Below are positions 3,076 to 12,100 of a stretch of DNA of 20,168 nt, piece after piece; position 1 is the stretch's first letter; every line of letters begins with the position of its first letter. A model generated the notes under the pieces. That model had not been told where the DNA came from and did not search any database. It saw only the letters and a list, made by a program, of their open reading frames with translations. This DNA is from a virus, in IMG/VR virus record IMGVR_UViG_3300033153_002015, positions 1-20,168 of that record, one strand, 5' to 3'. The translations under genes were made by a program, and so were the position numbers.

Positions 3076-4140
3076 TTACGCAGCGAGGTTGGTGATGTAG
3101 CCGCACGCGTTCGGGCGTTTGACCATGATCTGCGGGTAGCAGTAGAGGGCGAACTTGAACGCGTCGCCCGTGATTGCGAGCGGCTGAATGCGCGCGTAGA
3201 GCTTCGACTTGTTCTTGCCGAACTGCTCTTCGGGGGTACCGGCGAGGCCGATCGTTCCCATGGCGCGGTTCATCACGTCAGGGCTGTCGATGAGCTGACA
3301 GATCTTCACGTGGCGCGAGTTCAACGCGGTGACCTTCTGCACGGGATGCAGAACGTCTTCGATGACCGGGATGCCGTCGAACTCCAGCACCTGGTAGCCA
3401 CCGTCTAGCTTGATGACGGTGCCATCGTTGCGTCGGACGCTGTCGGTGTACCGGCGCTCGGCCTGGTACGCGAGACCGAGCTTTTCGTGCTGGACCGGAT
3501 CGGTGATGAAGATGTCGGGACGCTCACCACTCGCCGAGTAGATCACGCGGCGCAGTTCACGCATAAGCGTGAAGGCGTTCGCCTGGAAGTCTCCAGCTCC
3601 AGCGTCGACCACGTTCCCTTGCCACTGCGCGACACCCGAACGATCGATGCCGGCGTAGATGCCGGTGTCGCCGATGGCGTCAACGGTACCAGCACCGAGG
3701 GATCCGTAGAGCCCGTGCATGTTGTTCGTGGCGCCAGTGCCGGTGTAGATGTCCGCTGCGATGGCGCGCGCGAGACGCTCCACCGAATCACCAAGCTCGT
3801 CAACGAGCAGCGCGGCAAGCTCGGCGGGGTTGCCGGCGGCGCGGGCAGCTGCCATCGCCTTACCAGTGACGCTGAAGGCGTCGTGGTAGGTGCCGTACTG
3901 GAGAACGGCGGCCGACTTGGTGTCGTTGTTGAAGGTTGTGACGTCGGCGCCATCGGAGATGACGGCGGTGGTCGGAGTTGCGGTACCCGTGCGAACGGAC
4001 CACTGAACGTTCTTGCCTGTGCCAGGCGAGATGTCCAGCACCTGAGCGGCGACACAGGAACGGTTGATCTGATTCGCGATCTCATCGAAAAATAGTTCCG
4101 AGAGGGTCGCGTCGATGGTCGAGAATGAAACAACAGCCAT
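3076..4140 (-). CDS. Major capsid protein, HK97-fold, P22-coat-like (354 aa from the ATG at 4140)
   Basis: It lies directly downstream of a scaffold-like gene. ATG 4140 has SD GAGG with a 5-nt spacer (ACGAGGCACGCATG). The GTG at 4203 that opens the longer track ORF has no SD and sits inside a hairpin. By memory the sequence resembles the P22 coat family: ERPDIFITDPVQHEKLG versus P22 YFFNPQDYKKAG, and C-terminal FALYCYPQIMVKRPNACGYI versus P22 IALWYGVNATRPEAIGV. Confidence 0.85.
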   Translation of the reverse strand: MAVVSFSTIDATLSELFFDEIANQINRSCVAAQVLDISPGTGKNVQWSVRTGTATPTTAVISDGADVTTFNNDTKSAAVLQYGTYHDAFSVTGKAMAAARAAGNPAELAALLVDELGDSVERLARAIAADIYTGTGATNNMHGLYGSLGAGTVDAIGDTGIYAGIDRSGVAQWQGNVVDAGAGDFQANAFTLMRELRRVIYSASGERPDIFITDPVQHEKLGLAYQAERRYTDSVRRNDGTVIKLDGGYQVLEFDGIPVIEDVLHPVQKVTALNSRHVKICQLIDSPDVMNRAMGTIGLAGTPEEQFGKNKSKLYARIQPLAITGDAFKFALYCYPQIMVKRPNACGYITNLAA

Positions 4141-4393
4141 GCGTGCCTCGTAAATGTTGGTGGGTTGCAGGGTCCGCGCTGTTCGCTGCGCTGGCGTGCT
4201 CACCGAGGTGAGTTATGCAACGTGCGTGTTGCCTCCGTGCAACCCAGTCGAGGCCGGGTGTACGCAAACCATCCGCCCCCTTTCCGTTCGTGTCAAGTTA
4301 ACGAACGCAGCCGGCCGCACCACTTCACGAAGAAGCGATGCGGCCGATGATGCCGTAGGTATGGCTTGCTGTACCGATTCGGCGTCTTAGCCG
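4141..4393 (-). promoter_or_regulatory. Structured ~250-nt leader between the scaffold and capsid genes, containing four hairpins
   Basis: There are perfect or near-perfect inverted repeats (plus-strand coordinates). 4313-4345: GGCCGCA...TGCGGCC with an inner CTTC/GAAG stem. 4285-4307: CGTTCGT-9 nt-ACGAACG, with a TTGACA in the loop on the minus strand. 4228-4243: GTTGC-6 nt-GCAAC. 4199-4212: CTCAC-CGAG-GTGAG. No convincing ORF is present. Confidence 0.4.
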
Positions 4394-5152
4394 CTACTCG
4401 ATGGCGCCGAACAATTGTTTCCCGAGATGAGTCATCAGCTCTCCCCTGGACGGCTTCTCTCCCGGGCGCCTGGCTGGCGGGCGTCCACCCTTGTTGCCGG
4501 AACCGGATACGTCGACCGGCGGGAGGAACACTTTGCCCTCATCGGTACCGAGGTACTCGACGATGCCCTCGTCGATAGGCAGAAGCTCTGGCCCCCACTC
4601 GCGCTTGAAGCGCATGCAGATGTTCCCGTCCTCGTCGCGCTCGATGAGCTTCTGGTCGAGATACAGGTACGCGGAAGCTGCGCCGAGGCGAGCGTCATCG
4701 ACGCCGCCCTTCCGCAGTGCGTTCGTGAGCGAGCTGCGCTCCTGTTGCACTACGGCCTTCTGCTTCTCCGCTGCTGCTGCGTTCTCGGTGGCTTCGAGCT
4801 TCTCGCGGATAACCTTCTGCTCTGTCTTCATCTTCGCCAGCTCGATCTCGGCAGCGCTCGGCGGCTTGTCGCCTGGTGCCGGTGTCTCCGGTGCCGCTGG
4901 TGTCGGCGGCTGGAAGCTCTTCATGGCCTCGCCGATACCACTGGAGATCATGCCCGAGAAGTCGAGCCGCTTCAGGTGCCCAGTCACCGCGCTGTTCACC
5001 ATGTTCGCGAGCTTCTTCTCGTCGATAGCTGGCGCCGCGGGCGGGTCGCCACCGTCGCCACCACCGGCTGGCGGGTCGTCATCCGCAGAGCAGACCAGGC
5101 CGGACGTCGGCACCATCACGTTGAACGCATTCCGTAGATTCTCGAACTTCAT
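4394..5152 (-). CDS. Scaffolding protein (252 aa)
   Basis: It occupies the slot immediately upstream of the capsid gene. SD GGGGAGAAG lies before ATG 5152. The central region is charged and looks coiled-coil (AEIELAKMKTEQKVIREKLEATENAAAAEKQKAVVQQERSSL), with Pro/Ala-rich linkers and a basic C-terminus. The assignment rests on position and composition, not on a motif. Confidence 0.65.
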   Translation of the reverse strand: MKFENLRNAFNVMVPTSGLVCSADDDPPAGGGDGGDPPAAPAIDEKKLANMVNSAVTGHLKRLDFSGMISSGIGEAMKSFQPPTPAAPETPAPGDKPPSAAEIELAKMKTEQKVIREKLEATENAAAAEKQKAVVQQERSSLTNALRKGGVDDARLGAASAYLYLDQKLIERDEDGNICMRFKREWGPELLPIDEGIVEYLGTDEGKVFLPPVDVSGSGNKGGRPPARRPGEKPSRGELMTHLGKQLFGAIE

Positions 5153-5193: not shown

Positions 5194-5418
5194 TTAACTT
5201 GGTCTATAGCTGAGCAGTTCGTCAAGGTACGTCTTCTCTGGCGTCATATCGATGTCCCAGTCTTCGGCTAGAATCTCCAGCCCGACCGGGTCGTCTTGAC
5301 TGCGCCAGATGACGATCCACTCGTCTTGCGTTAGCGGTCTCTTCAGCGACTTGTAGTACCGCTCTGCTGCATCCAGGTCGTTGCGTGGCATGTCCACGAT
5401 GTTCAGATTCTTCGCCAT
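5194..5418 (-). CDS. Small acidic protein (74 aa), translationally coupled to the giant MuF protein. Candidate cognate inhibitor or immunity protein
   Basis: Its ATG overlaps the giant gene's TAA by 1 nt (TAATG at 5420-5416). By my count it has 16 D/E against 9 K/R. Sequence: MAKNLNIVDMPRNDLDAAERYYKSLKRPLTQDEWIVIWRSQDDPVGLEILAEDWDIDMTPEKTYLDELLSYRPS. I recognise no family. Confidence 0.6.
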   Translation of the reverse strand: MAKNLNIVDMPRNDLDAAERYYKSLKRPLTQDEWIVIWRSQDDPVGLEILAEDWDIDMTPEKTYLDELLSYRPS

Positions 5419-8400
5419 TATGGTCGGCTCTTCTTCTTGGCGGACGCCAGTGCATCGCGCATTGCTTTTCGCTTATCCTTCGGGAACAGGACGATGAACG
5501 CGTCGGTGAATGCGTCGGCGCCGTCGTGCCTGTCCGTCGACTTCTTCATGTCACGGGAGACCCTTGTCAGGATCTCGAAGGCGTCGTCGCGCGACACATC
5601 ATGCGATGCAGCAATGCCGTCAGTGAGGGTATCGATCCAGGTGCCATACGATCCACCGTTTCGCTGCATGCTGCGCGCTACCCCGTAGTACCTGTGCATG
5701 ATGTCGCGCGCGGAGACCTCGGTGACGACCTCCTCGACGATCTTGCCGTGTCCGCGATACGCCTTCGTGCCCATGTTGCCGTGCCCATGAACCGCTTCGT
5801 GCACGATGGTGCGCATGCCCTGCGAGTTGTCGTACAGCTCTTTGCCTGGATGTTCTTTTATCTTGTCGAGCGATGCGGTCATCTTCTTCAGCAGCTTCAG
5901 CGTCTCCTCACCCTTCCTGTGGTACTCCCTGCTGAAGACGGCACGCCTCTTCTTGTCCTCGGCTTCTGTGAAGTTCGGGTGGTTCTTAAATGCATCCAAC
6001 AGCTTCGTCTGGTTGCGGTGCCATCCGGTGCGTTCCTTGACCGCTGCACGGTGCGCATCGATGTCGACACGTGCTCGCACGCTGAGCTTGCCGAACGCCT
6101 TGAGATCTGCGCGCGACTTCTTCGCCAGAGCTGGCTTGGCGAACTGCTTCGTGAACTTCTTCGCCTTCTTGATTTGCGTATCGCGAATATGGATTCGACC
6201 GTTCCATGCGTGCGTACCCAGCGCACCGCGCGGGTTCTTCTGAATCATGATGTCGTCGACGTCTTGCGGTCGCTTGTGCAAGCCATCGAGGTCGAGGACG
6301 TCGTCGATGCTCTGACGTACCAGAGTCCAGTCGCCACTCTCGAAGCCTGCGCGCGTGTTCGTTGCGCGCGACGCAACGAGGGCAACAGACTCGGCTCGCT
6401 CCTTGGGAGTCATTGCCGCGGCGACGTCTTTCATCTTCTGCCGCGCTTCCTTCAGTAGCTTCCTGTTCTTTGGCGACTCGGCGATCTTGTTCAGATCGGC
6501 GATGTCAGATTCAAGGATCTTCTTCCGCGCCTGGTCTTTCCACCTCCACCTCTTCTTGTACCTGATCTTGTCCAGCTCTTTGTCGAGTGGCTTCAGCTCG
6601 GCATACAGTCGATCGAAGAGCTTCTTGAAGTCGGAGGATACCTTGACCATCTCCTTCTTCCGCTTTGCGGGCGTGTCGAGGTCGACCGGTCGCTTCATCT
6701 TCTTCCCGGCGGGCTTGCCGGGCACCTTGTCGTTCTGCTCCTTGGTGGCGTCCGGGTGGATAGTGATCTCAGGGGCTGGCTTGCCCTTCTTCTTCAGGCG
6801 GTACCCGCGGATACGCTCGCGCGTGAGCCGTGCCTTCCGCTCACTCTTGCTCTCGCCAGGCAGCCACACCTTGCCGAAGCTCGTGCCCTTAGGAAACACC
6901 TTCGCCTCGACGACGCTGGTGTCGGGCTCGGGCTCTTCCTTCTTCGGCTTCACCTTCGTGTGGCGACGCCAGAAGCTGTCGATGTCCTTCTTGCTTGTGC
7001 CGTCGTATAGCAGCACCGCCATGCCTGTGGTCGCATCAGTGACCCAGAATTGAGGCTTCTGTTTGCTGTCGTCTACCCAGGCACGGTGAACCGTGAACTC
7101 GGCGCCCGTGAGCTTGCGCCATACGGTGATACCGTCCGCCGGTACCCGCGACCTGAACTTCACGGGCTTCTCGTGCTCCTTGTCGGCGTGCTCGTATTCG
7201 CTCCAGAACGCTGCGACGTCTAAGCTGCTAGTTGCGTCGTAGGTGCGTACGCGTTTGCCACGTTCGCCGATGAGGGAGAAGAGGGGCCTCCCTCCTTCAC
7301 GGTCGTAGTCGTGATCTACCCTGCGCCTCTTCTTCGTCCCCTTGCGCTGAACCATAAGCCCGCTATCTGGGACGCCCGGCACGCTGTCGACGGCCTCCGG
7401 GTACAACTTCGTCGGCGTGTGCTTGAACGGAAGATAGGTGCTCCAGAAGCGAGACAGCGCCGCGATGTCGTCACCCCTCCATCGAACAGATACGGCCTTC
7501 GCGCCGTCAGCTGGTCGCAGTACGAACCATGGCCCCTTCTTCTTCTCCTCGTCATCCCATCCGCGCGTGACGACATACTCGCGGGCGAACCTCTGCCCCC
7601 ACACTGACTGGCCATCGGTCGGCGCCGTGGAGTGGAACGAGTCAGTCGCTGGCTCGATCGGGTTGTATGTTTTCCAGAACGACTTGACGTCCAGCTTGTC
7701 CGTAGCCAGCCAGCTACCGTACACGCGAACGCCTCCGTCGATTGGCTCGACTGCGAAGACTGGAAATTGCTCTTCGGCATCGGAGAAGCTGTGCCGCACA
7801 ACATACTTGCTGCCTGTGATCTTGTTCCAGACGATCTGGTTTTTCTTCGGAGCACTCGCTAGCGGCTTGCCTCCGACGGGCTTCGGTGGCGGCTTGACCT
7901 CGCTCTTCGAGTAGTGGCTCCAGAACATGGCGACGCCGCTCTTCGTGTCACCACGCAGCCGCTCTGCCTGCGAAGGGCCGCCCGACACGACTAGCCACTT
8001 GCCGCCGTACACCTTCGCGCGTTTCACCACGAGCTTCTTGCCGGTGTCCCTCACCCATACCGTAGATCCGTCCTCCGGTGCGTTGGCATCCCACTCGGTC
8101 TCTTCCTTCTCGGGCTTCTTCTCGGTCTTCTCCTTCGAGTACCCCTTCCAGAACATCAGGACTGCATGCGCAGCTGAGCCGCGGTACTTCTGTGACTCGC
8201 CGCCCCTCTCGTTCTTCGCGAAGAACCACAATCTGCCGTCGGCGTCGGTCTCGCGAACGACGGTGAACTTCGAGCCGTAGCGCCTCCCCCACACGGTCAT
8301 GCCGTTAGTGGGTGCACCCTTCGCCCACTTCTTGGGTGTGCGGCTGAACAGTGACCAGAATGTTCTAATATCGTCTGGGGCGTCGCCCTCGTAGAACCTC

Positions 8401-9959
8401 GTTGTCGCACCGCCGTCGACGCGCAGTGCTTGAAATATCGGATTCTGCTTCTTGGCGTCGCTGTACTGGTGGAGGATTTCCCACTTCTTCCCGGTCTTCT
8501 TCGACCAGACGAAGCTACCCTTCTTTGGCGCGTTCGCGTGGAACGGGATCGGCTTGAGCTTGTCCGGCTTGGTCTTCGTGTGGCGATCCCAAAACAGTTC
8601 GACCTGTAGCTTGTTGTCGCCTGGGTACTTGCCGACCTGGCGTGTCTTGTCGCGAACGACGATCCAGATCCTGCCGTCGTCTTCGGTCAAGCGCTTCGTT
8701 GTGCGGCGCTCGCCGGTCTTGACATCCCATACGACCTGACCATCGAACGGCGCACCCGCAACCCACTCTCGCTTCTTCTTCGGCGGCGGCTTCGGTGGCG
8801 CGGCTACCTGTTCCTTGTCGGTTGCATGAGGGTGAATGGTGTCATCGGGTATCAGTAGCCCCTTCTTCTTCGCGCGATACTTCCTTATGCGCTCCTTGGT
8901 CATCCGCGCCTTGCGTGCCGCCTTGTCTTCGCCCGGCAGCCAGACCTTTCCGAAGTTGGCGCCGCTTCGCTTGTGCGGCGGCTTGTCGAGGTCGGGCTTA
9001 ATCCTTGGCGCCTTCGGTAGCAGGTTGCCTGGATGCGGCTTACCTCGGTCGCCGGATTCTGGCGGCGCACCTTCGGCGTCCATCTTCCAATCCTCGTGCC
9101 ACGCCACGATCACACATCGGCAATTGGGATGGGCCGGCGGTTCGATGTGCCGCGACGTGTACGACTTCTTGGCCCCTCGCCATTTGCCTACGAACTCCTC
9201 GTCAACCGCCCTCACCTGACCATCGAGGCTCTTGCACTGCGGGCACCGCCGCCAGTCGTACGCAGCATCCCACCGGTTCTTTATGCCGGGGTCGACCTTC
9301 GCGATCTCTCTGATGCCCTCCTTGTGATAGACGTTGTATGCGTGCATCACCTCGGTGCGTGCCACCATCGACGCGCGCCGCGAGAACTGCCCGAACACGC
9401 CCGGCATGTTCCGCTTCAGCCGTTCACCTGTTTCGCGAATGGTCTCGCCCTTCACGCGCCCGACCGCAAGCTCTTGAACGAGCCGCTTGCGGATGTCGCC
9501 AGAGTAACGCCGAGCTGAGCGGGGGAAGCGCTTCAGTACCAAGCTGTCGCCGCGCGCGAGCACGATCGCCTCGTCCATGGCGACCGAGTTCATCTCGCCG
9601 TCGAACAGATGCCCGAACCGAAGCATCTCGTCTTCGACGTTCTTCATCGACAGAGACGCAGCGTCCTTCGCGCTCAGGTTCAACCCTTCGACAAGCGCTG
9701 GCTCTGTCTCCTTCAGTGTGTTGAGAGCAGAGCGAACCTGTTGCAGCGCGCTACGGAGCTTCTGCGTGGTGAACCTCTTGTCCCCGTCCTCTTTGTCGAG
9801 CCACTTCTTCAAGTCCTTGAGAAGCTCGGCACGGGCCTGCGCGAGGATGGGTGCCACCTTCCTGGCTACCGGCGTAGGAAGCCCGTCCACGGCTGCCGCT
9901 GACCGTTGCAGGACAGCCTGGTACTCCCTGCGCTGCTTGCCGGTGATTTTGCGCGCCAT
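5418..9959 (-). CDS. Giant (1513 aa) MuF / SPP1 gp7-family head morphogenesis protein. It is fused to an 8-unit repeat array and a C-terminal HExxH (zincin-like) domain, i.e. a polyvalent virion protein
   Basis: The N-terminal ~290 aa carry the MuF signature: RRASMVARTEVMHAYNVY...NRWDAAYDWRRCPQCKSLDGQ...IEPPAHPNCRCVIV. Eight ~70-aa repeats span aa 398-1005. HEAVHGHG is at aa 1387-1394 (HEAVH = nt 5787-5801). The gene sits in the canonical portal-to-MuF-to-scaffold slot. Confidence 0.9.
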   Translation of the reverse strand: MARKITGKQRREYQAVLQRSAAAVDGLPTPVARKVAPILAQARAELLKDLKKWLDKEDGDKRFTTQKLRSALQQVRSALNTLKETEPALVEGLNLSAKDAASLSMKNVEDEMLRFGHLFDGEMNSVAMDEAIVLARGDSLVLKRFPRSARRYSGDIRKRLVQELAVGRVKGETIRETGERLKRNMPGVFGQFSRRASMVARTEVMHAYNVYHKEGIREIAKVDPGIKNRWDAAYDWRRCPQCKSLDGQVRAVDEEFVGKWRGAKKSYTSRHIEPPAHPNCRCVIVAWHEDWKMDAEGAPPESGDRGKPHPGNLLPKAPRIKPDLDKPPHKRSGANFGKVWLPGEDKAARKARMTKERIRKYRAKKKGLLIPDDTIHPHATDKEQVAAPPKPPPKKKREWVAGAPFDGQVVWDVKTGERRTTKRLTEDDGRIWIVVRDKTRQVGKYPGDNKLQVELFWDRHTKTKPDKLKPIPFHANAPKKGSFVWSKKTGKKWEILHQYSDAKKQNPIFQALRVDGGATTRFYEGDAPDDIRTFWSLFSRTPKKWAKGAPTNGMTVWGRRYGSKFTVVRETDADGRLWFFAKNERGGESQKYRGSAAHAVLMFWKGYSKEKTEKKPEKEETEWDANAPEDGSTVWVRDTGKKLVVKRAKVYGGKWLVVSGGPSQAERLRGDTKSGVAMFWSHYSKSEVKPPPKPVGGKPLASAPKKNQIVWNKITGSKYVVRHSFSDAEEQFPVFAVEPIDGGVRVYGSWLATDKLDVKSFWKTYNPIEPATDSFHSTAPTDGQSVWGQRFAREYVVTRGWDDEEKKKGPWFVLRPADGAKAVSVRWRGDDIAALSRFWSTYLPFKHTPTKLYPEAVDSVPGVPDSGLMVQRKGTKKRRRVDHDYDREGGRPLFSLIGERGKRVRTYDATSSLDVAAFWSEYEHADKEHEKPVKFRSRVPADGITVWRKLTGAEFTVHRAWVDDSKQKPQFWVTDATTGMAVLLYDGTSKKDIDSFWRRHTKVKPKKEEPEPDTSVVEAKVFPKGTSFGKVWLPGESKSERKARLTRERIRGYRLKKKGKPAPEITIHPDATKEQNDKVPGKPAGKKMKRPVDLDTPAKRKKEMVKVSSDFKKLFDRLYAELKPLDKELDKIRYKKRWRWKDQARKKILESDIADLNKIAESPKNRKLLKEARQKMKDVAAAMTPKERAESVALVASRATNTRAGFESGDWTLVRQSIDDVLDLDGLHKRPQDVDDIMIQKNPRGALGTHAWNGRIHIRDTQIKKAKKFTKQFAKPALAKKSRADLKAFGKLSVRARVDIDAHRAAVKERTGWHRNQTKLLDAFKNHPNFTEAEDKKRRAVFSREYHRKGEETLKLLKKMTASLDKIKEHPGKELYDNSQGMRTIVHEAVHGHGNMGTKAYRGHGKIVEEVVTEVSARDIMHRYYGVARSMQRNGGSYGTWIDTLTDGIAASHDVSRDDAFEILTRVSRDMKKSTDRHDGADAFTDAFIVLFPKDKRKAMRDALASAKKKSRP
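6945..8768 (-). repeat. Protein-level tandem array: eight diverged ~67-73-aa repeats inside the giant MuF protein
   Basis: Approximate units are 8768-8565, 8549-8331, 8330-8124, 8099-7899, 7868-7653, 7640-7422, 7394-7182 and 7160-6945. The shared pattern is AP-x-DG-xx-VW...TG..(F/Y/W).V.(R/H)...(W/F).(V/F)...(Y/R).G...(V/I)..FW..(Y/H). Examples are APFDGQVVWDVKTGE...VELFWDRH, APTNGMTVWGRRYGSKFTVV...VLMFWKGY and VPADGITVWRKLTGAEFTVH...IDSFWRRH. Confidence 0.85.
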
Positions 9960-9962
9960 AGG

Positions 9963-10283
9963 TCAGTCGATCGGGATGAACTCTCCGCTCTCCTCGTCGA
10001 ATGCGTACCGGCCAGGAGGTAGATCGATCGATGCGTCGTCGACGGTGAGTTCGAGCTGCATCACGGTGATGGGGATGTGGATCATCATCTGGCTCGGGTT
10101 GTCGGGGTCGAACGTCACATCGATATCCGGCGTTTCCTCGACACCTGCCTCTTCCAGCCAACCAGACAACGACTCCATCATCCGCTGCGCGACCAAGTCA
10201 GGCGTGACGACGGTACCGACCAAGTCGGCGAGACCTTCGCGCATTTGCTTTGCCAGGCGCGCAACTGCAATCTCGTCGCTCAC
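9963..10283 (-). CDS. Small, strongly acidic protein (106 aa) between the portal and MuF genes
   Basis: Its GTG start overlaps the portal stop as GTGA, and its stop lies 3 nt before the MuF ATG. It is rich in D/E (..EEAGVEETPDIDVTFDPDNP..DDASIDLPPGRYAFDEESGEFIPID). Function is unknown. Confidence 0.65.
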   Translation of the reverse strand: MSDEIAVARLAKQMREGLADLVGTVVTPDLVAQRMMESLSGWLEEAGVEETPDIDVTFDPDNPSQMMIHIPITVMQLELTVDDASIDLPPGRYAFDEESGEFIPID

Positions 10284-12100
10284 TTCTTCCTCGTGTCGAC
10301 CATCTTCTTGCGGCCAACTTCAGGCTTCTCTGGTGGAGCCGGGGGCTTGTCGTCGTCCTCGTCCTCTTCTTCGAGGTCCTCTTCTTCGATGTCACCAGCT
10401 CCAGGGTGTACTTCGATGCGGTCCATCATTGGCGAGAACTGGTCGTCAGTGATGTTCATCATCAGCTCGGTCTCGATGTCGTCGAGGTCGTCTGCTGTTG
10501 CGTTATCCCCGAGTGTGACCTTCGCCAGCGCGAACTTGAACAGGCGCTGAAACGTGGCCGATGGAATCGAGATGCCTTCGAGGGTGACCCCCTTCTCGAT
10601 CTCATCTGACGCTTGCGTCTCATCGAACTTGTCGCAGCCAGCGGCGTTCCACTGCGGAGCAAGGTCGGCTTCGCCGCGCACACACGAGACCATCCCGTAC
10701 ACCTTCTCGGCGAACGAGCGAAGCAGAACGCCCAGCGCATCGAGGACCGTGGTCTTCGACGACTTGTCTTGCTTCTTCGACTCGCCGCTTCGCCCCACGG
10801 TCGCCGCGTTCGTGTCGACAGCCAGGGACATCTGATGCGTTACGCGATGCATTTCGTTCTTCGTGTCGACACAGCTCGCGCGCGCTTCGCTGAACGGCCC
10901 CGGGTCAGGGCCGACGAACTCGGCGCGATCCTGGTGACCTCGCTGCTGGACGTACCCCTGCCCCCTTGCCTGCGTCGTCGCGCGTTCCGGGTTCTCCTGG
11001 TTCGCGGATACGCCAGGCACCTGCGTTCCGCCCATGGACGTCTCTTCTGGTCCGTGGAATTCATACAGCTCTGGCAGTAGCGATTGCAGCTCGGCCCAAG
11101 CCAGGCCGCTGCGCTTGTTGAAGTGCTCGCGCGCCAAGCCTTCGAGCTTCGCCATGGCCCACAAGCCTTCGGGCACAGTGAGGCGAACCAGCGGTACCTT
11201 GCCCGTGGAATACGTGCCCTCATTGACCAGCCGCACAAGATCTGTATCCTTGGGCTTCTCGTCGGCCTTGTGGCGCAGCTCGTATCGAGACCAGCCATTC
11301 GTGTCGTAGTAGGTCCACCGCTGCGTGTGCACGTCGCGCGACGAGAACAGGTTCTCGCGCTGGGCTTCAACCGTGTGAACGAGCGCCCATTGCAGGGTGT
11401 TCGATTCATCCTCCTCCCAGTCGATGACGCTCTCCGGTTCGATGCGTACGGCGTAGGCGTCGAGTGCACCGCTCATCTTCTGGTCGAGCCTATCTGCGTA
11501 TACCGGCTCTTCGTTTCCGAGGCCGCGCATGTCTGGAAGGTCGACGAGTACCCATGCTGTTCGACAGATGAGCGAGTTCAGCATGCAGTCGCGCAGCTGT
11601 TCGTTGAACGGGGTCACCTCTGAATCGACGTGCGACGTGTCCTCGTGGAAGGCGTCGTACCATGGAGGGTATGAGCCCTTCTCCTTCGTCGAGTCGTTCG
11701 TGTCCATGGTGATGGGTGTGTTGCACAGCATCGACACGATGTCGTCGATGATCTCCCCGGCGTATGGCGTGTAAAAAGCGCGGTTGCATCGCTCTTCGTA
11801 GACGCTCGGGTGCTCGTTGCGGTGAGGGGGAAAGACCTCCTTCATCACAACAGGATCGTCCATTAGCATCTTGCCGCCGGAATACAGCGCGCGCAACCGA
11901 CGCCAGTACCCAGCGGCGTAGTCCGGGTGCGTCACCTTCAGCAGTCGATACGGGATGGCGCCAGGCCCGCCCTCGGTTTCGGTCTGCGTGCCCTGGGGGA
12001 AATCTGCGTGCCGTGACTCGGCGCGTTTGATGGTGCGGTGTCGAGCTTCATTGTCGGAGATGCCCTCTCCGCTGCCCTGCATTGAATCGTTGCCTGCCAT
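10280..12100 (-). CDS. Portal protein (606 aa)
   Basis: Its size and its position between TerL and MuF fit a portal. The N-terminal segment YEERCNRAFYTPYAGEIIDDIVSML resembles the conserved (Y)xxRxxRAxYxNxxxxxV opening of DUF4055-type portals, as I remember it. It has an acidic C-terminal tail (EEEDLEEEDEDDD). Confidence 0.8.
   Translation of the reverse strand: MAGNDSMQGSGEGISDNEARHRTIKRAESRHADFPQGTQTETEGGPGAIPYRLLKVTHPDYAAGYWRRLRALYSGGKMLMDDPVVMKEVFPPHRNEHPSVYEERCNRAFYTPYAGEIIDDIVSMLCNTPITMDTNDSTKEKGSYPPWYDAFHEDTSHVDSEVTPFNEQLRDCMLNSLICRTAWVLVDLPDMRGLGNEEPVYADRLDQKMSGALDAYAVRIEPESVIDWEEDESNTLQWALVHTVEAQRENLFSSRDVHTQRWTYYDTNGWSRYELRHKADEKPKDTDLVRLVNEGTYSTGKVPLVRLTVPEGLWAMAKLEGLAREHFNKRSGLAWAELQSLLPELYEFHGPEETSMGGTQVPGVSANQENPERATTQARGQGYVQQRGHQDRAEFVGPDPGPFSEARASCVDTKNEMHRVTHQMSLAVDTNAATVGRSGESKKQDKSSKTTVLDALGVLLRSFAEKVYGMVSCVRGEADLAPQWNAAGCDKFDETQASDEIEKGVTLEGISIPSATFQRLFKFALAKVTLGDNATADDLDDIETELMMNITDDQFSPMMDRIEVHPGAGDIEEEDLEEEDEDDDKPPAPPEKPEVGRKKMVDTRKK

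What the first reader, a model, noticed from the sequence alone, without database searches (positions are those of the whole stretch)
6945..8768. Array of eight diverged tandem ~70-aa Trp-rich repeats of unknown family
Read directly from the translation, each unit opens with (A/V)P-x-(D/K/N)G-xx-VW. It then has a basic beta-hairpin-like K.TG..(F/Y/W).V.(R/H), a second aromatic strand (W/F).(V/F), and closes with (V/I)..FW..(Y/H).

The units are:
- R1: APFDGQVVWDVKTGERRTTKRL...LQVELFWDRH
- R2: APKKGSFVWSKKTGKKWEILHQ...IRTFWSLF
- R3: APTNGMTVWGRRYGSKFTVVRE...VLMFWKGY
- R4: APEDGSTVWVRDTGKKLVVKRA...VAMFWSHY
- R5: APKKNQIVWNKITGSKYVVRHS...VKSFWKTY
- R6: APTDGQSVWGQRFAREYVVTRG...LSRFWSTY
- R7: VPDSGLMVQRKGTKKRRRVDHD...VAAFWSEY
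- R8: VPADGITVWRKLTGAEFTVHRA...IDSFWRRH

The DNA copies are too diverged for recent slippage, so the array appears to be maintained by selection. Small basic aromatic beta-domains in tandem suggest a nucleic-acid-binding or cell-wall-binding beads-on-a-string module. Inside a head protein, that could organise or escort the packaged genome end.
Basis: seen in the sequence. Interest (0 to 1): 0.65.

Follow-up and report, generated by a model that had tools for sequence, protein, structure and literature searches.

The report
Orphan repeat array in MuF protein
A phage head-internal (MuF-type) protein carries eight old, diverged copies of a small basic domain that matches no described family and was found in only two other proteins in public data; the repeats are real, but what they bind is still unknown.

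Summary
Window 6948..8765 (minus strand) encodes eight units, each a 57-64 aa core joined by 10-20 aa K/P-rich linkers. They lie inside one 1513-aa ORF (5418..9959). Every unit scores 41-63 bits against a profile built from the other seven; shuffled copies reach at most 10 bits. Similarity is at protein level only, and third codon positions are near random.

The host protein is a MuF/SPP1-gp7 minor capsid protein encoded just after the portal gene. It ends in a conserved HExxH..EE module that looks zincin-like, followed by a small acidic ORF.

The unit matches nothing in Pfam, PHROGs, NCBIfam, PADLOC or PDB sequences. AlphaFold2 gives a very confident fold (pLDDT 97) of four beta-strands plus a C-terminal helix. 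Foldseek finds no significant match; the best weak hits are Tudor/SH3-like barrels.

An exhaustive profile search of 1.84 billion proteins found the unit in only two other MuF-HExxH proteins, with 2 and 1 copies. More distant MuF-HExxH proteins have none. The array is therefore a lineage-specific, copy-number-variable insertion in the basic linker.

The most likely role is inferred, not shown: a flexible, multivalent, polyanion (DNA)-binding string inside the capsid. I rate it a new variant of a known kind, of moderate interest.

The parts
5418..9959 (-). Whole gene: 1513-aa MuF-type minor capsid / polyvalent protein, net charge +110, pI about 10
   Evidence: ORF list and translation; charge; full-length relatives P0002 and P0006 keep the same N- and C-terminal modules in frame
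9072..9911 (-). MuF / SPP1 gp7 head-morphogenesis domain (aa 17-296; Pfam core aa 164-284)
   Evidence: Pfam PF04233 E 8e-16, 59.2 bits against cutoff 29.6; PHROG head-morphogenesis families; TIGR01641 phageSPP1_gp7 at 34.8 bits, below its cutoff of 39.65
8808..8960 (-). Basic motif copy 1 (aa 334-384): FGKVWLPGE..RKARMTKERIRKYRAKKKG..TIHP
   Evidence: Local alignment with copy 2 scores 198; 64% DNA identity. Two tandem copies in P0002
8754..8807 (-). P/K-rich linker leading into the array (aa 385-402)
   Evidence: Sequence; equivalent P/K-rich linkers in all MuF-HExxH relatives
8580..8753 (-). Unit R1 (aa 403-460)
   Evidence: leave-one-out score 56.5 bits; AF2 model pLDDT 97.3 with strands 13-16, 22-29, 35-41, 44-50 and helix 54-63
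8346..8531 (-). Unit R2 (aa 477-538)
   Evidence: leave-one-out score 61.9 bits; closest to R5
8139..8315 (-). Unit R3 (aa 549-607)
   Evidence: leave-one-out score 59.0 bits; closest to R6
7911..8081 (-). Unit R4 (aa 627-683)
   Evidence: leave-one-out score 51.6 bits; closest to R1
7665..7853 (-). Unit R5 (aa 703-765)
   Evidence: leave-one-out score 63.4 bits
7434..7625 (-). Unit R6 (aa 779-842)
   Evidence: leave-one-out score 60.0 bits
7194..7373 (-). Unit R7 (aa 863-922), the most diverged copy
   Evidence: leave-one-out score 40.7 bits; clusters weakly with the first unit of P0002
6960..7145 (-). Unit R8 (aa 939-1000)
   Evidence: leave-one-out score 63.2 bits
6732..6884 (-). Basic motif copy 2 (aa 1026-1076)
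5421..6347 (-). C-terminal module (aa 1205-1513) shared with MuF proteins that lack the units; largely helical
   Evidence: HMM of the last ~150 aa finds L004, L005, L006, L012, L013, L087, P0009 and P0010; AF2 mean pLDDT 56, with the last ~135 aa at about 62-93 by 10-residue block
5718..5801 (-). HEAVH...G.G...EEVVTE motif (aa 1387-1414), a candidate zinc site of a zincin-like peptidase
   Evidence: H, E, H, G, E, E, E invariant across 10 diverse sequences; top Foldseek hits are M4 thermolysin-like peptidases but not significant, E 0.4
5194..5418 (-). Small acidic ORF (74 aa, pI 4.3) whose start overlaps the stop of the MuF gene; conserved partner of the HExxH module
   Evidence: relatives sharing the RND and QDDP motifs follow the MuF-HExxH gene in L001, L002, L004, L005, L012 and L013
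10280..12100 (-). Portal gene (context)
   Evidence: PHROG 145 portal, E 2e-25

Best explanation
The eight units are independently folding copies of an orphan small domain: four antiparallel beta-strands capped by a C-terminal helix, with a core of about 58-64 aa. They were inserted and amplified in the flexible, lysine/proline-rich linker of a capsid-internal MuF (SPP1 gp7-like) protein, between the portal-binding MuF domain and a conserved HExxH (zincin-like) C-terminal module.

Shown here:
- The units are real and ancient, and their similarity is kept at protein level.
- The host protein is a MuF protein in a terminase-portal-MuF-scaffold-capsid module.
- Copy number among relatives is 0, 1, 2 or 8, so the array is dispensable for the basic MuF-HExxH design and is a lineage-specific add-on.
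- The whole protein is extremely basic.

Inferred: MuF brings a few copies of the protein into the procapsid through the portal. There the array and its basic linkers act as a multivalent, sequence-independent binder of the packaged DNA near the portal. The string would hold, brake or escort the genome end that leaves first. Because each bead is small, the chain can stay flexible and could in principle be threaded out with the DNA, carrying the C-terminal enzyme. More copies would mean more DNA contacts and longer reach.
For: - Repeats are real.
- MuF domain and gene order: ParB-methyltransferase, TerL, portal, MuF, scaffold-like ORF, major capsid protein. The same order is seen in the two homologous contigs.
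- The unit folds alone with pLDDT 97.3 as four strands plus a helix. P0006 has a single unit, so it is an autonomous domain.
- Copy number is 8/2/1 in the three proteins that have the unit. It is 0 in six or more further MuF-HExxH proteins.
- Charge: protein net +110; array +32; units in the relatives +6 to +10; linkers rich in K and P.
- The weak fold neighbours are Tudor, KOW/Spt5 and chromo-type small barrels, which typically bind nucleic acids or peptides.
- Literature: SPP1 gp7 is carried into the procapsid by the portal in a few copies, was described as a DNA-binding protein, and supports the start of infection (PMC6316719). MuF domains carry C-terminal cargo thought to be delivered to the host (PMC5512222, PMC5576092).
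Against: - No binding activity was tested or can be tested here.
- The eight units themselves are only mildly basic (+1 to +5). Much of the charge lies in linkers and other regions.
- No DNA-binding family matched by sequence or structure.
- A few copies per capsid cannot matter for bulk charge neutralisation.
- From my own memory of Vinga et al. 2006, SPP1 gp7 was not co-ejected with DNA. Ejection of this protein is therefore an open assumption.
- The family is so rare (three protein clusters) that the array could be nearly neutral baggage.
Confidence: 0.4

Rival explanations
1. The units are protein-binding modules. Each small barrel-like domain grips a host protein, such as a defence or repair factor, or a phage head component. 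The array would then be a multivalent trap or decoy delivered with the genome.
For: - The weak fold neighbours (Tudor, chromo, SH3-like) are classic peptide binders.
- Polyvalent MuF fusions are proposed to carry anti-defence cargo (PMC5512222).
- The eight copies are strongly diverged (23-40% identity), which could reflect different targets.
Against: - There is no match to any known anti-defence or defence family.
- The conserved positions are mostly hydrophobic or aromatic, judged from the sequence pattern only. No conserved ligand-pocket motif could be identified without coordinates.
Confidence: 0.2
2. The array is a passive spacer. It sets the length and flexibility of the tether between the portal-bound MuF domain and the C-terminal enzyme, with no ligand of its own. 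Small beads keep the chain soluble and threadable.
For: - Copy number varies freely (0, 1, 2, 8) in otherwise collinear proteins.
- The array sits inside a linker that is already long and low-complexity in all relatives.
Against: - Surface-type positions also keep a pattern: the basic K-x-T-G-K-K hairpin, an R/H at the end of strand 2, and Y-x-G.
- A spacer could be made more cheaply from the P/K linker alone, as the zero-copy relatives do.
Confidence: 0.15
3. The protein is a polyprotein. The C-terminal HExxH peptidase cuts the linkers and releases eight small basic internal proteins into the capsid or the host.
For: - The conserved HExxH..EE motif.
- Iyer et al. propose that zincin-like peptidases process polyvalent proteins (PMC5512222).
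- Short exposed linkers lie between every unit.
Against: - The linkers share no common cleavage motif.
- The peptidase fold is not confirmed: Foldseek E 0.4 on a model of mean pLDDT 56.
- The HExxH module also occurs in proteins with no units to release.
Confidence: 0.1
4. The units are cell-envelope-binding repeats, analogous to SH3b or GW modules. They would position the C-terminal metallopeptidase on peptidoglycan during genome entry.
For: - Tandem basic modules of 60-80 aa with conserved Trp recall the GW/SH3b cell-wall anchors of Gram-positive surface proteins. This is a resemblance from my own knowledge, not a test.
- Some virion-borne peptidases attack peptidoglycan (PMC5512222).
Against: - No unit hits SH3b, GW, LysM, SPOR or PG-binding Pfam models even at E up to 10.
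- No SH3b or GW structure appears among the top Foldseek matches.
- A MuF protein sits inside the head, not on the tail tip.
Confidence: 0.1
5. There is no real repeat: the similarity is a by-product of biased composition.
For: The protein is compositionally biased, with 20.6% K+R and 4.5% Trp in the array.
Against: - Composition-preserving shuffles never approach the observed scores.
- The unit recurs in two independent metagenomic proteins.
- The AF2 fold is confident.
Confidence: 0.01

Closest known systems
SPP1 gp7 / phage Mu F minor capsid proteins (Pfam PF04233 Phage_Mu_F, TIGR01641)
   Same: The N-terminal domain matches above the Pfam threshold, including the conserved PPAHPNCRC end. 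The gene lies directly downstream of the portal gene in a head module.
   Different: gp7-type proteins are about 300 aa. This one is 1513 aa, with an eight-unit array, two basic motifs and a roughly 440-aa C-terminal region. It scores below the TIGR01641 cutoff.
MuF polymorphic toxins and MuF-anchored polyvalent proteins (Jamet et al. 2017, PMC5576092; Iyer et al. 2017, PMC5512222)
   Same: The layout is MuF, then linker, then a C-terminal enzyme-like module, followed by a small ORF of under 150 aa. About 20% of MuF toxins carry a metallopeptidase domain (PMC5576092).
   Different: The C-terminal module matches no Pfam toxin or peptidase model. In what I read of either paper I found no report of an internal tandem array of one small domain. 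Toxicity and immunity are untested.
Tudor / chromo / KOW SH3-like small beta-barrels (for example 53BP1 tandem Tudor, ERCC6L2 Tudor, Spt5 KOW)
   Same: Similar size, an antiparallel beta-meander, and in some cases a C-terminal helix. These are the top Foldseek PDB neighbours.
   Different: None is significant: E at least 0.1, TM at most 0.44, RMSD 4.4-9 A. There is no sequence similarity.
Uncharacterised small phage proteins in BFVD (for example Bacillus phage Spock U5PXU8, Microbacterium phage Appa A0A2U8UHS7, Escherichia phage nieznany A0A6B9WUD4)
   Same: These are the best structural neighbours: TM 0.53-0.60, RMSD 3.2-3.5 A over about 60-69 aligned columns.
   Different: E-values are 0.03-0.3, so not significant. 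Identity is 14-17%. They are single-domain proteins of unknown function, so they say nothing about role.
Thermolysin-like (M4) gluzincin metallopeptidases, for the C-terminal module only
   Same: HExxH followed about 18-23 residues later by invariant glutamates. M4 peptidases are the top Foldseek hits.
   Different: The match is not significant (E 0.4, TM 0.22) and the model is poor. There is no Pfam peptidase hit.

Membership tests
MuF / SPP1 gp7 minor capsid protein family | Sequence match to the Phage_Mu_F domain above the curated threshold | tested here: met
   PF04233 E 8.2e-16, 59.2 bits against cutoff 29.6, aa 164-284; PHROG head-morphogenesis families. TIGR01641 is below its cutoff: 34.8 against 39.65.
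MuF / SPP1 gp7 minor capsid protein family | Gene sits in the packaging/head module next to the portal gene | tested here: met
   TerL 12506-14020, portal 10280-12100, MuF 5418-9959 and major capsid protein 3076-4203 are all on the minus strand. The same order holds in L001 and L002.
MuF / SPP1 gp7 minor capsid protein family | Binds the portal and is present in a few copies inside the capsid | not testable with these tools
   Needs virion proteomics or pull-downs. Known for SPP1 gp7 (PMC6316719).
MuF polymorphic toxin / polyvalent protein | C-terminal extension with an effector (enzyme) domain | tested here: inconclusive
   HExxH and downstream Glu residues are invariant in 10 sequences. No Pfam match, and the structural match to M4 peptidases is not significant.
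MuF polymorphic toxin / polyvalent protein | Small ORF (under 150 aa) immediately downstream, a candidate immunity gene | tested here: met
   A 74-aa acidic ORF at 5194-5418 overlaps the stop codon. Relatives lie downstream of six other MuF-HExxH genes. An immunity function is not tested.
MuF polymorphic toxin / polyvalent protein | Toxicity or anti-defence activity after delivery to the host | not testable with these tools
   Needs expression and infection assays.
Any curated repeat or domain family (Pfam, PHROGs, NCBIfam, PADLOC, PDB sequences) | Profile match of the unit | tested here: not met
   Each unit scanned against Pfam at E up to 10 gave only a chance DUF1684 hit at E 0.22. PHROGs, NCBIfam and PADLOC match nothing in the array. 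A profile search of PDB sequences had a best E of 0.14.
Tudor / chromo / SH3-like small beta-barrel | Significant structural superposition on a family member | tested here: inconclusive
   Best Foldseek PDB hits are 53BP1 and ERCC6L2 Tudor domains at E 0.1-0.4, TM 0.36-0.44. They are the top neighbours but below significance.
Tudor / chromo / SH3-like small beta-barrel | Aromatic cage or other family-specific ligand pocket | not tested
Only secondary structure and pLDDT were returned.
SH3b / GW / LysM / SPOR cell-wall-binding repeats | Sequence or fold match to a cell-wall-binding module | tested here: not met
   No such Pfam hit at E up to 10, and none among the top 50 Foldseek PDB matches.
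Zincin-like metallopeptidase (C-terminal module) | HExxH plus a third zinc ligand downstream, conserved across relatives | tested here: met
   H1387, E1388, H1391, E1409, E1410 and E1414 are invariant in alignment A6 of 10 sequences.
Zincin-like metallopeptidase (C-terminal module) | Zincin fold (active-site helix packed against a beta-sheet subdomain) | tested here: inconclusive
   AF2 mean pLDDT is 56; only the last ~135 aa are confident and they are all helical. The Foldseek top hits are M4 peptidases at E 0.4.

The most novel reading that the evidence does not exclude
The unit is a previously undescribed small nucleic-acid-binding fold. One phage lineage has amplified it into a copy-number-tunable, threadable 'DNA brake/escort' inside the capsid. 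The eight beads would grip the first-ejected genome end and leave through the tail with it, towing a zincin-like enzyme into the host.
Probability: 0.2. Interest if true: 0.6.

Novelty: new variant of a known kind. Interest (0 to 1): 0.4.

Why it matters
MuF-anchored head proteins are thought to be a general route by which phages carry cargo into the capsid and possibly into the host. What sits between the anchor and the cargo has received little attention.

Here that linker holds a confidently folding orphan domain. It occurs in only three protein clusters out of 1.84 billion representatives searched, with 1, 2 or 8 copies. That natural copy-number series is a ready-made experiment on what linker domains do for genome retention, ejection or cargo delivery.

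If the unit binds DNA, it adds a new small DNA-binding fold. If it binds nothing, it shows that phages can build threadable spacers from miniature domains. The family is very rare, so the general impact is limited unless distant relatives are found by structure.

Tried and rejected
1. Two word-index homology searches, one with the 8-unit profile and one with the 746-aa array region, returned nothing, not even the protein itself. The K/P low-complexity words probably swamped the candidate list. The exhaustive HMM search replaced them.

2. The other hits of the exhaustive search (P0003-P0005, P0007, P0008) were rejected as relatives. They match only a hairpin-sized part of the profile. P0004 and P0005 are BNR/Asp-box proteins, P0003 carries PKD/Ig-like domains, and P0008 carries CarboxypepD_reg/SdrD-B repeats.

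3. Scans for more family members gave 175 loci:
- IMG/VR with the C-terminal profile, the full-length alignment, the portal, P0002, P0006 and a GKVWLPGE DNA pattern.
- GTDB genomes with the full-length alignment.
- JGI metagenomes with the C-terminal profile.
A six-frame HMM scan found the unit only in L001-L003.

The 5-row version gave mean pLDDT 56, and its Foldseek search was not significant.

5. There is no DNA-level repeat. Megablast of the window against GenBank phages found no match.

6. The cell-wall-binding reading found no support.

Full report
**Where the finding sits**

The coordinates 6945..8768 fall inside a single minus-strand ORF, 5418..9959, of 1513 aa. They correspond to aa 398-1005.

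Neighbouring minus-strand genes are as follows:
- a ParB_N-DNA methyltransferase fusion, 14610-15884
- the large terminase, 12506-14020
- the portal, 10280-12100
- a 252-aa scaffold-position ORF with no family match, 4394-5152
- a major head protein, 3076-4203

The window is therefore the head module of a tailed phage or prophage. It has no close cultured relative. Megablast of the window against GenBank phages finds nothing, and the terminase is at most 31% identical to any deposited phage.

Yes. Eight units can be delimited at aa 403-460, 477-538, 549-607, 627-683, 703-765, 779-842, 863-922 and 939-1000. Window coordinates are given.
- Cores are 57-64 aa and linkers 10-20 aa, giving a period of 72-84 aa.
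- Pairwise protein identity is 23-40%. Codon-aligned DNA identity is 33-55%, and Tandem Repeats Finder sees no array.
- 26 of 28 pairwise Smith-Waterman scores beat all 300 composition-preserving shuffles, with mean z of 10.
- In a leave-one-out test every unit scores 41-63 bits against an HMM of the other seven. The best of 500 shuffles of the same unit reaches 10 bits.
- A six-frame scan of the window finds exactly these eight copies and no others.
- Identity by codon position is 0.51, 0.44 and 0.39, against random expectations of 0.28, 0.26 and 0.33.
- Units pair up as R1/R4, R2/R5 and R3/R6. This points to an old duplication of a three-unit block.

**The host protein**
- Residues 17-296 are a MuF/SPP1-gp7 head-morphogenesis domain. 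Pfam PF04233 scores 59.2 bits against a cutoff of 29.6, and several PHROG head-morphogenesis families match.
- A 50-aa basic motif follows at aa 334-384: FGKVWLPGE..RKARxTxERIRxYRxKKKG..TIHP. Then comes a P/K-rich linker, the array, and a second copy of the basic motif at aa 1026-1076. The two motif copies are 64% identical in DNA.
- The remaining roughly 440 aa are largely helical and end in a conserved module containing HEAVH...EEVVTE (aa 1387-1414).
- The whole protein has net charge +110 and a pI of about 10. The array contributes +32, and single units +1 to +5.

**What the unit is not**
- No unit matches Pfam even at E up to 10.
- PHROGs, NCBIfam and PADLOC match only the MuF part or nothing.
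- A profile of the units finds nothing in PDB sequences; the best E is 0.14.

**Fold of the unit**

AlphaFold2 on R1, with the eight units as the only alignment, gives mean pLDDT 97.3 and pTM 0.83. The model has strands at 13-16, 22-29, 35-41 and 44-50 and a helix at 54-63 of the 67-aa construct. This is a four-stranded antiparallel meander capped by the helix that carries the invariant FW.

Foldseek against the PDB gives no match at E below 0.001. The best are 53BP1 and ERCC6L2 Tudor domains and Spt5 KOW-type barrels, at E 0.1-0.4 and TM at most 0.44. Against BFVD the best are uncharacterised small phage proteins, at E 0.03-0.3 and TM 0.53-0.60. The fold looks like a small SH3/Tudor-like beta domain with a helix, but membership of any such family is not established.

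**Distribution**

An exhaustive hmmsearch of the 8-unit profile against 1.84 billion representative proteins returned eight proteins at E up to 0.001. Apart from the window protein itself, only two are true relatives:
- P0002: 925 aa, two units, E 2e-15.
- P0006: 725 aa, one unit, E 5e-5.

Both are MuF proteins with the same C-terminal HExxH module. Both sit in syntenic portal-MuF-scaffold-capsid contigs from metagenomes.

The other five hits match only a hairpin-sized part of the profile. P0004 and P0005 are BNR/Asp-box proteins, P0003 has PKD/Ig-like domains, and P0008 has CarboxypepD_reg-type repeats. P0007 was not scanned against Pfam and was rejected from its sequence and its 24-residue match.

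Scans of IMG/VR, GTDB genomes and JGI metagenomes with the C-terminal profile, the full-length alignment, the portal, the two relatives and a DNA pattern for the basic motif brought in 175 loci. A six-frame HMM scan found the unit only in the loci already known.

One limit applies. A single diverged copy scores near the detection threshold of a 69-position profile. Distant single-copy relatives may therefore have been missed.

**The array is an insertion**

The C-terminal HExxH module is more widespread than the unit. MuF-linker-HExxH proteins without any unit occur in L004, L012, L013, L087, L005/L167 and L006, and as fragments P0009 and P0010. All have a P/K-rich linker after the MuF domain.

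The basic design is therefore MuF, basic linker, HExxH module. One small clade has placed 1, 2 or 8 units in the linker.

In a 10-sequence alignment the residues H, E and H of HExxH, two glycines and three glutamates 18-23 residues downstream are invariant. That is the signature of a gluzincin-type site.

The AF2 model of the C-terminal 309 aa is poor overall: mean pLDDT 56, with only the last ~135 aa confident. Foldseek is not significant, although its top hits are M4 thermolysin-like peptidases at E 0.4. 'Zincin-like' is thus inferred from the motif, not demonstrated.

**A conserved partner gene**

A 74-aa acidic ORF (5194..5418, pI 4.3) starts on the stop codon of the MuF gene. Relatives sharing the RND(L/V) and QDD(P/S) motifs follow the MuF-HExxH gene in L001, L002, L004, L005, L012 and L013, whether or not units are present. 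It tracks the HExxH module. It sits where immunity genes of MuF toxins sit (PMC5576092).

**How it most likely works**

Established knowledge:
- SPP1 gp7 is carried into the procapsid by strong binding to the portal, in a few copies. It was described as a DNA-binding protein, and particles lacking it are only about 25% infectious (PMC6316719).
- MuF domains are fused to many effector domains thought to be packaged and delivered to the host. About 20% of MuF toxins carry a metallopeptidase domain, and zincin-like peptidases are proposed to process polyvalent proteins (PMC5512222, PMC5576092).
- From my own memory of Vinga et al. 2006, gp7 anchors released DNA to the particle, slows DNA exit, and was not detectably co-ejected.

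Against this background, the best-supported reading is that the array is a flexible string of autonomous small domains inside the capsid, tethered at the portal by MuF. The extreme positive charge of the protein, the histone-tail-like K/P linkers, the basic hairpin conserved in the units and the gp7 precedent all point to multivalent, sequence-independent binding of the packaged DNA near the portal. Copy number would set valency and reach.

Whether the chain then leaves with the DNA, carrying the HExxH module, or stays behind as a brake cannot be decided here. No binding activity has been tested, so I put this at about 0.4.

Rivals, some of which are compatible with the main reading:
- Protein-binding or decoy modules (0.2).
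- A passive spacer (0.15).
- A polyprotein cut at the linkers by its own peptidase (0.1). The linkers share no common motif.
- Envelope-binding repeats that position a muralytic peptidase (0.1). No support.
- A compositional artefact, which is excluded.

**Novelty and verdict**

The host protein is a member of a known kind: MuF-anchored multidomain head proteins. The repeated domain is not in any library searched. It has no significant structural neighbour and is found in three protein clusters worldwide. I found no report of an internal eight-fold array of one small domain in the passages of the two MuF surveys that I read.

I classify it as a new variant of a known kind, with interest 0.4. 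It is a real, clean and unexplained feature with a natural 0/1/2/8 copy-number series. However, it is very rare, and its function rests on inference.

Noticed in passing
window 5194..5418 (-); also L001 7163-7399, L002 12175-12360, L004 7206-7430, L012 8411-8611, L013 4568-4798, L005 10604-10816: A small acidic ORF (74 aa, pI 4.3) is translationally coupled to the MuF gene. Relatives sharing the 'RND(L/V)' and 'QDD(P/S)' motifs follow every MuF-HExxH gene examined except L087, with or without the repeat units. It sits where an immunity or inhibitor gene would sit for the C-terminal HExxH module.
   Followed up: partly
window 8808..8960 and 6732..6884 (-): A 50-aa basic motif (FGKVWLPGE..RKARxTRERIRxYRxKKKG..TIHP) occurs twice and brackets the array, with 64% DNA identity between copies. 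P0002 has two copies in tandem upstream of its two units, and P0006 has none. A DNA pattern scan of IMG/VR for GKVWLPG(D/E) gave five matches, none in a relative: no unit or C-terminal HMM hit, and the downstream basic motif is absent. No family match.
   Followed up: partly
window 6960..8753 (-), units R1-R6: Units pair as R1/R4, R2/R5 and R3/R6. This suggests the array grew by an old duplication of a three-unit block rather than one unit at a time.
   Followed up: partly
window 5421..6347 (-), about aa 1290-1380: The window protein has a helical insertion of roughly 100 aa just upstream of the HExxH helix, relative to P0002 and P0006. L012 and L013 have comparable helical, coiled-coil-like insertions at the same place.
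   Followed up: no
window 14610..15884 (-): A ParB_N-like domain fused to a DNA methyltransferase (PHROG 498, E 6e-105) lies upstream of the terminase genes. L002 has a separate ParB_N gene next to a PF20691 (TAGT) gene at the equivalent place.
   Followed up: no
L005 7910-10597 and L006 7649-10087: More distant MuF-HExxH proteins carry an extra region of about 450 aa ahead of the MuF domain. This shows that the HExxH module travels with MuF in several different architectures. The extra region was not identified.
   Followed up: no
whole window: There is no megablast match to any GenBank phage, and the terminase is at most 31% identical to deposited phages. Portal relatives in IMG/VR (42-46% identity; L168-L170) show no unit or C-terminal HExxH-module hit in a six-frame HMM scan. 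The window comes from an uncultured lineage.
   Followed up: partly
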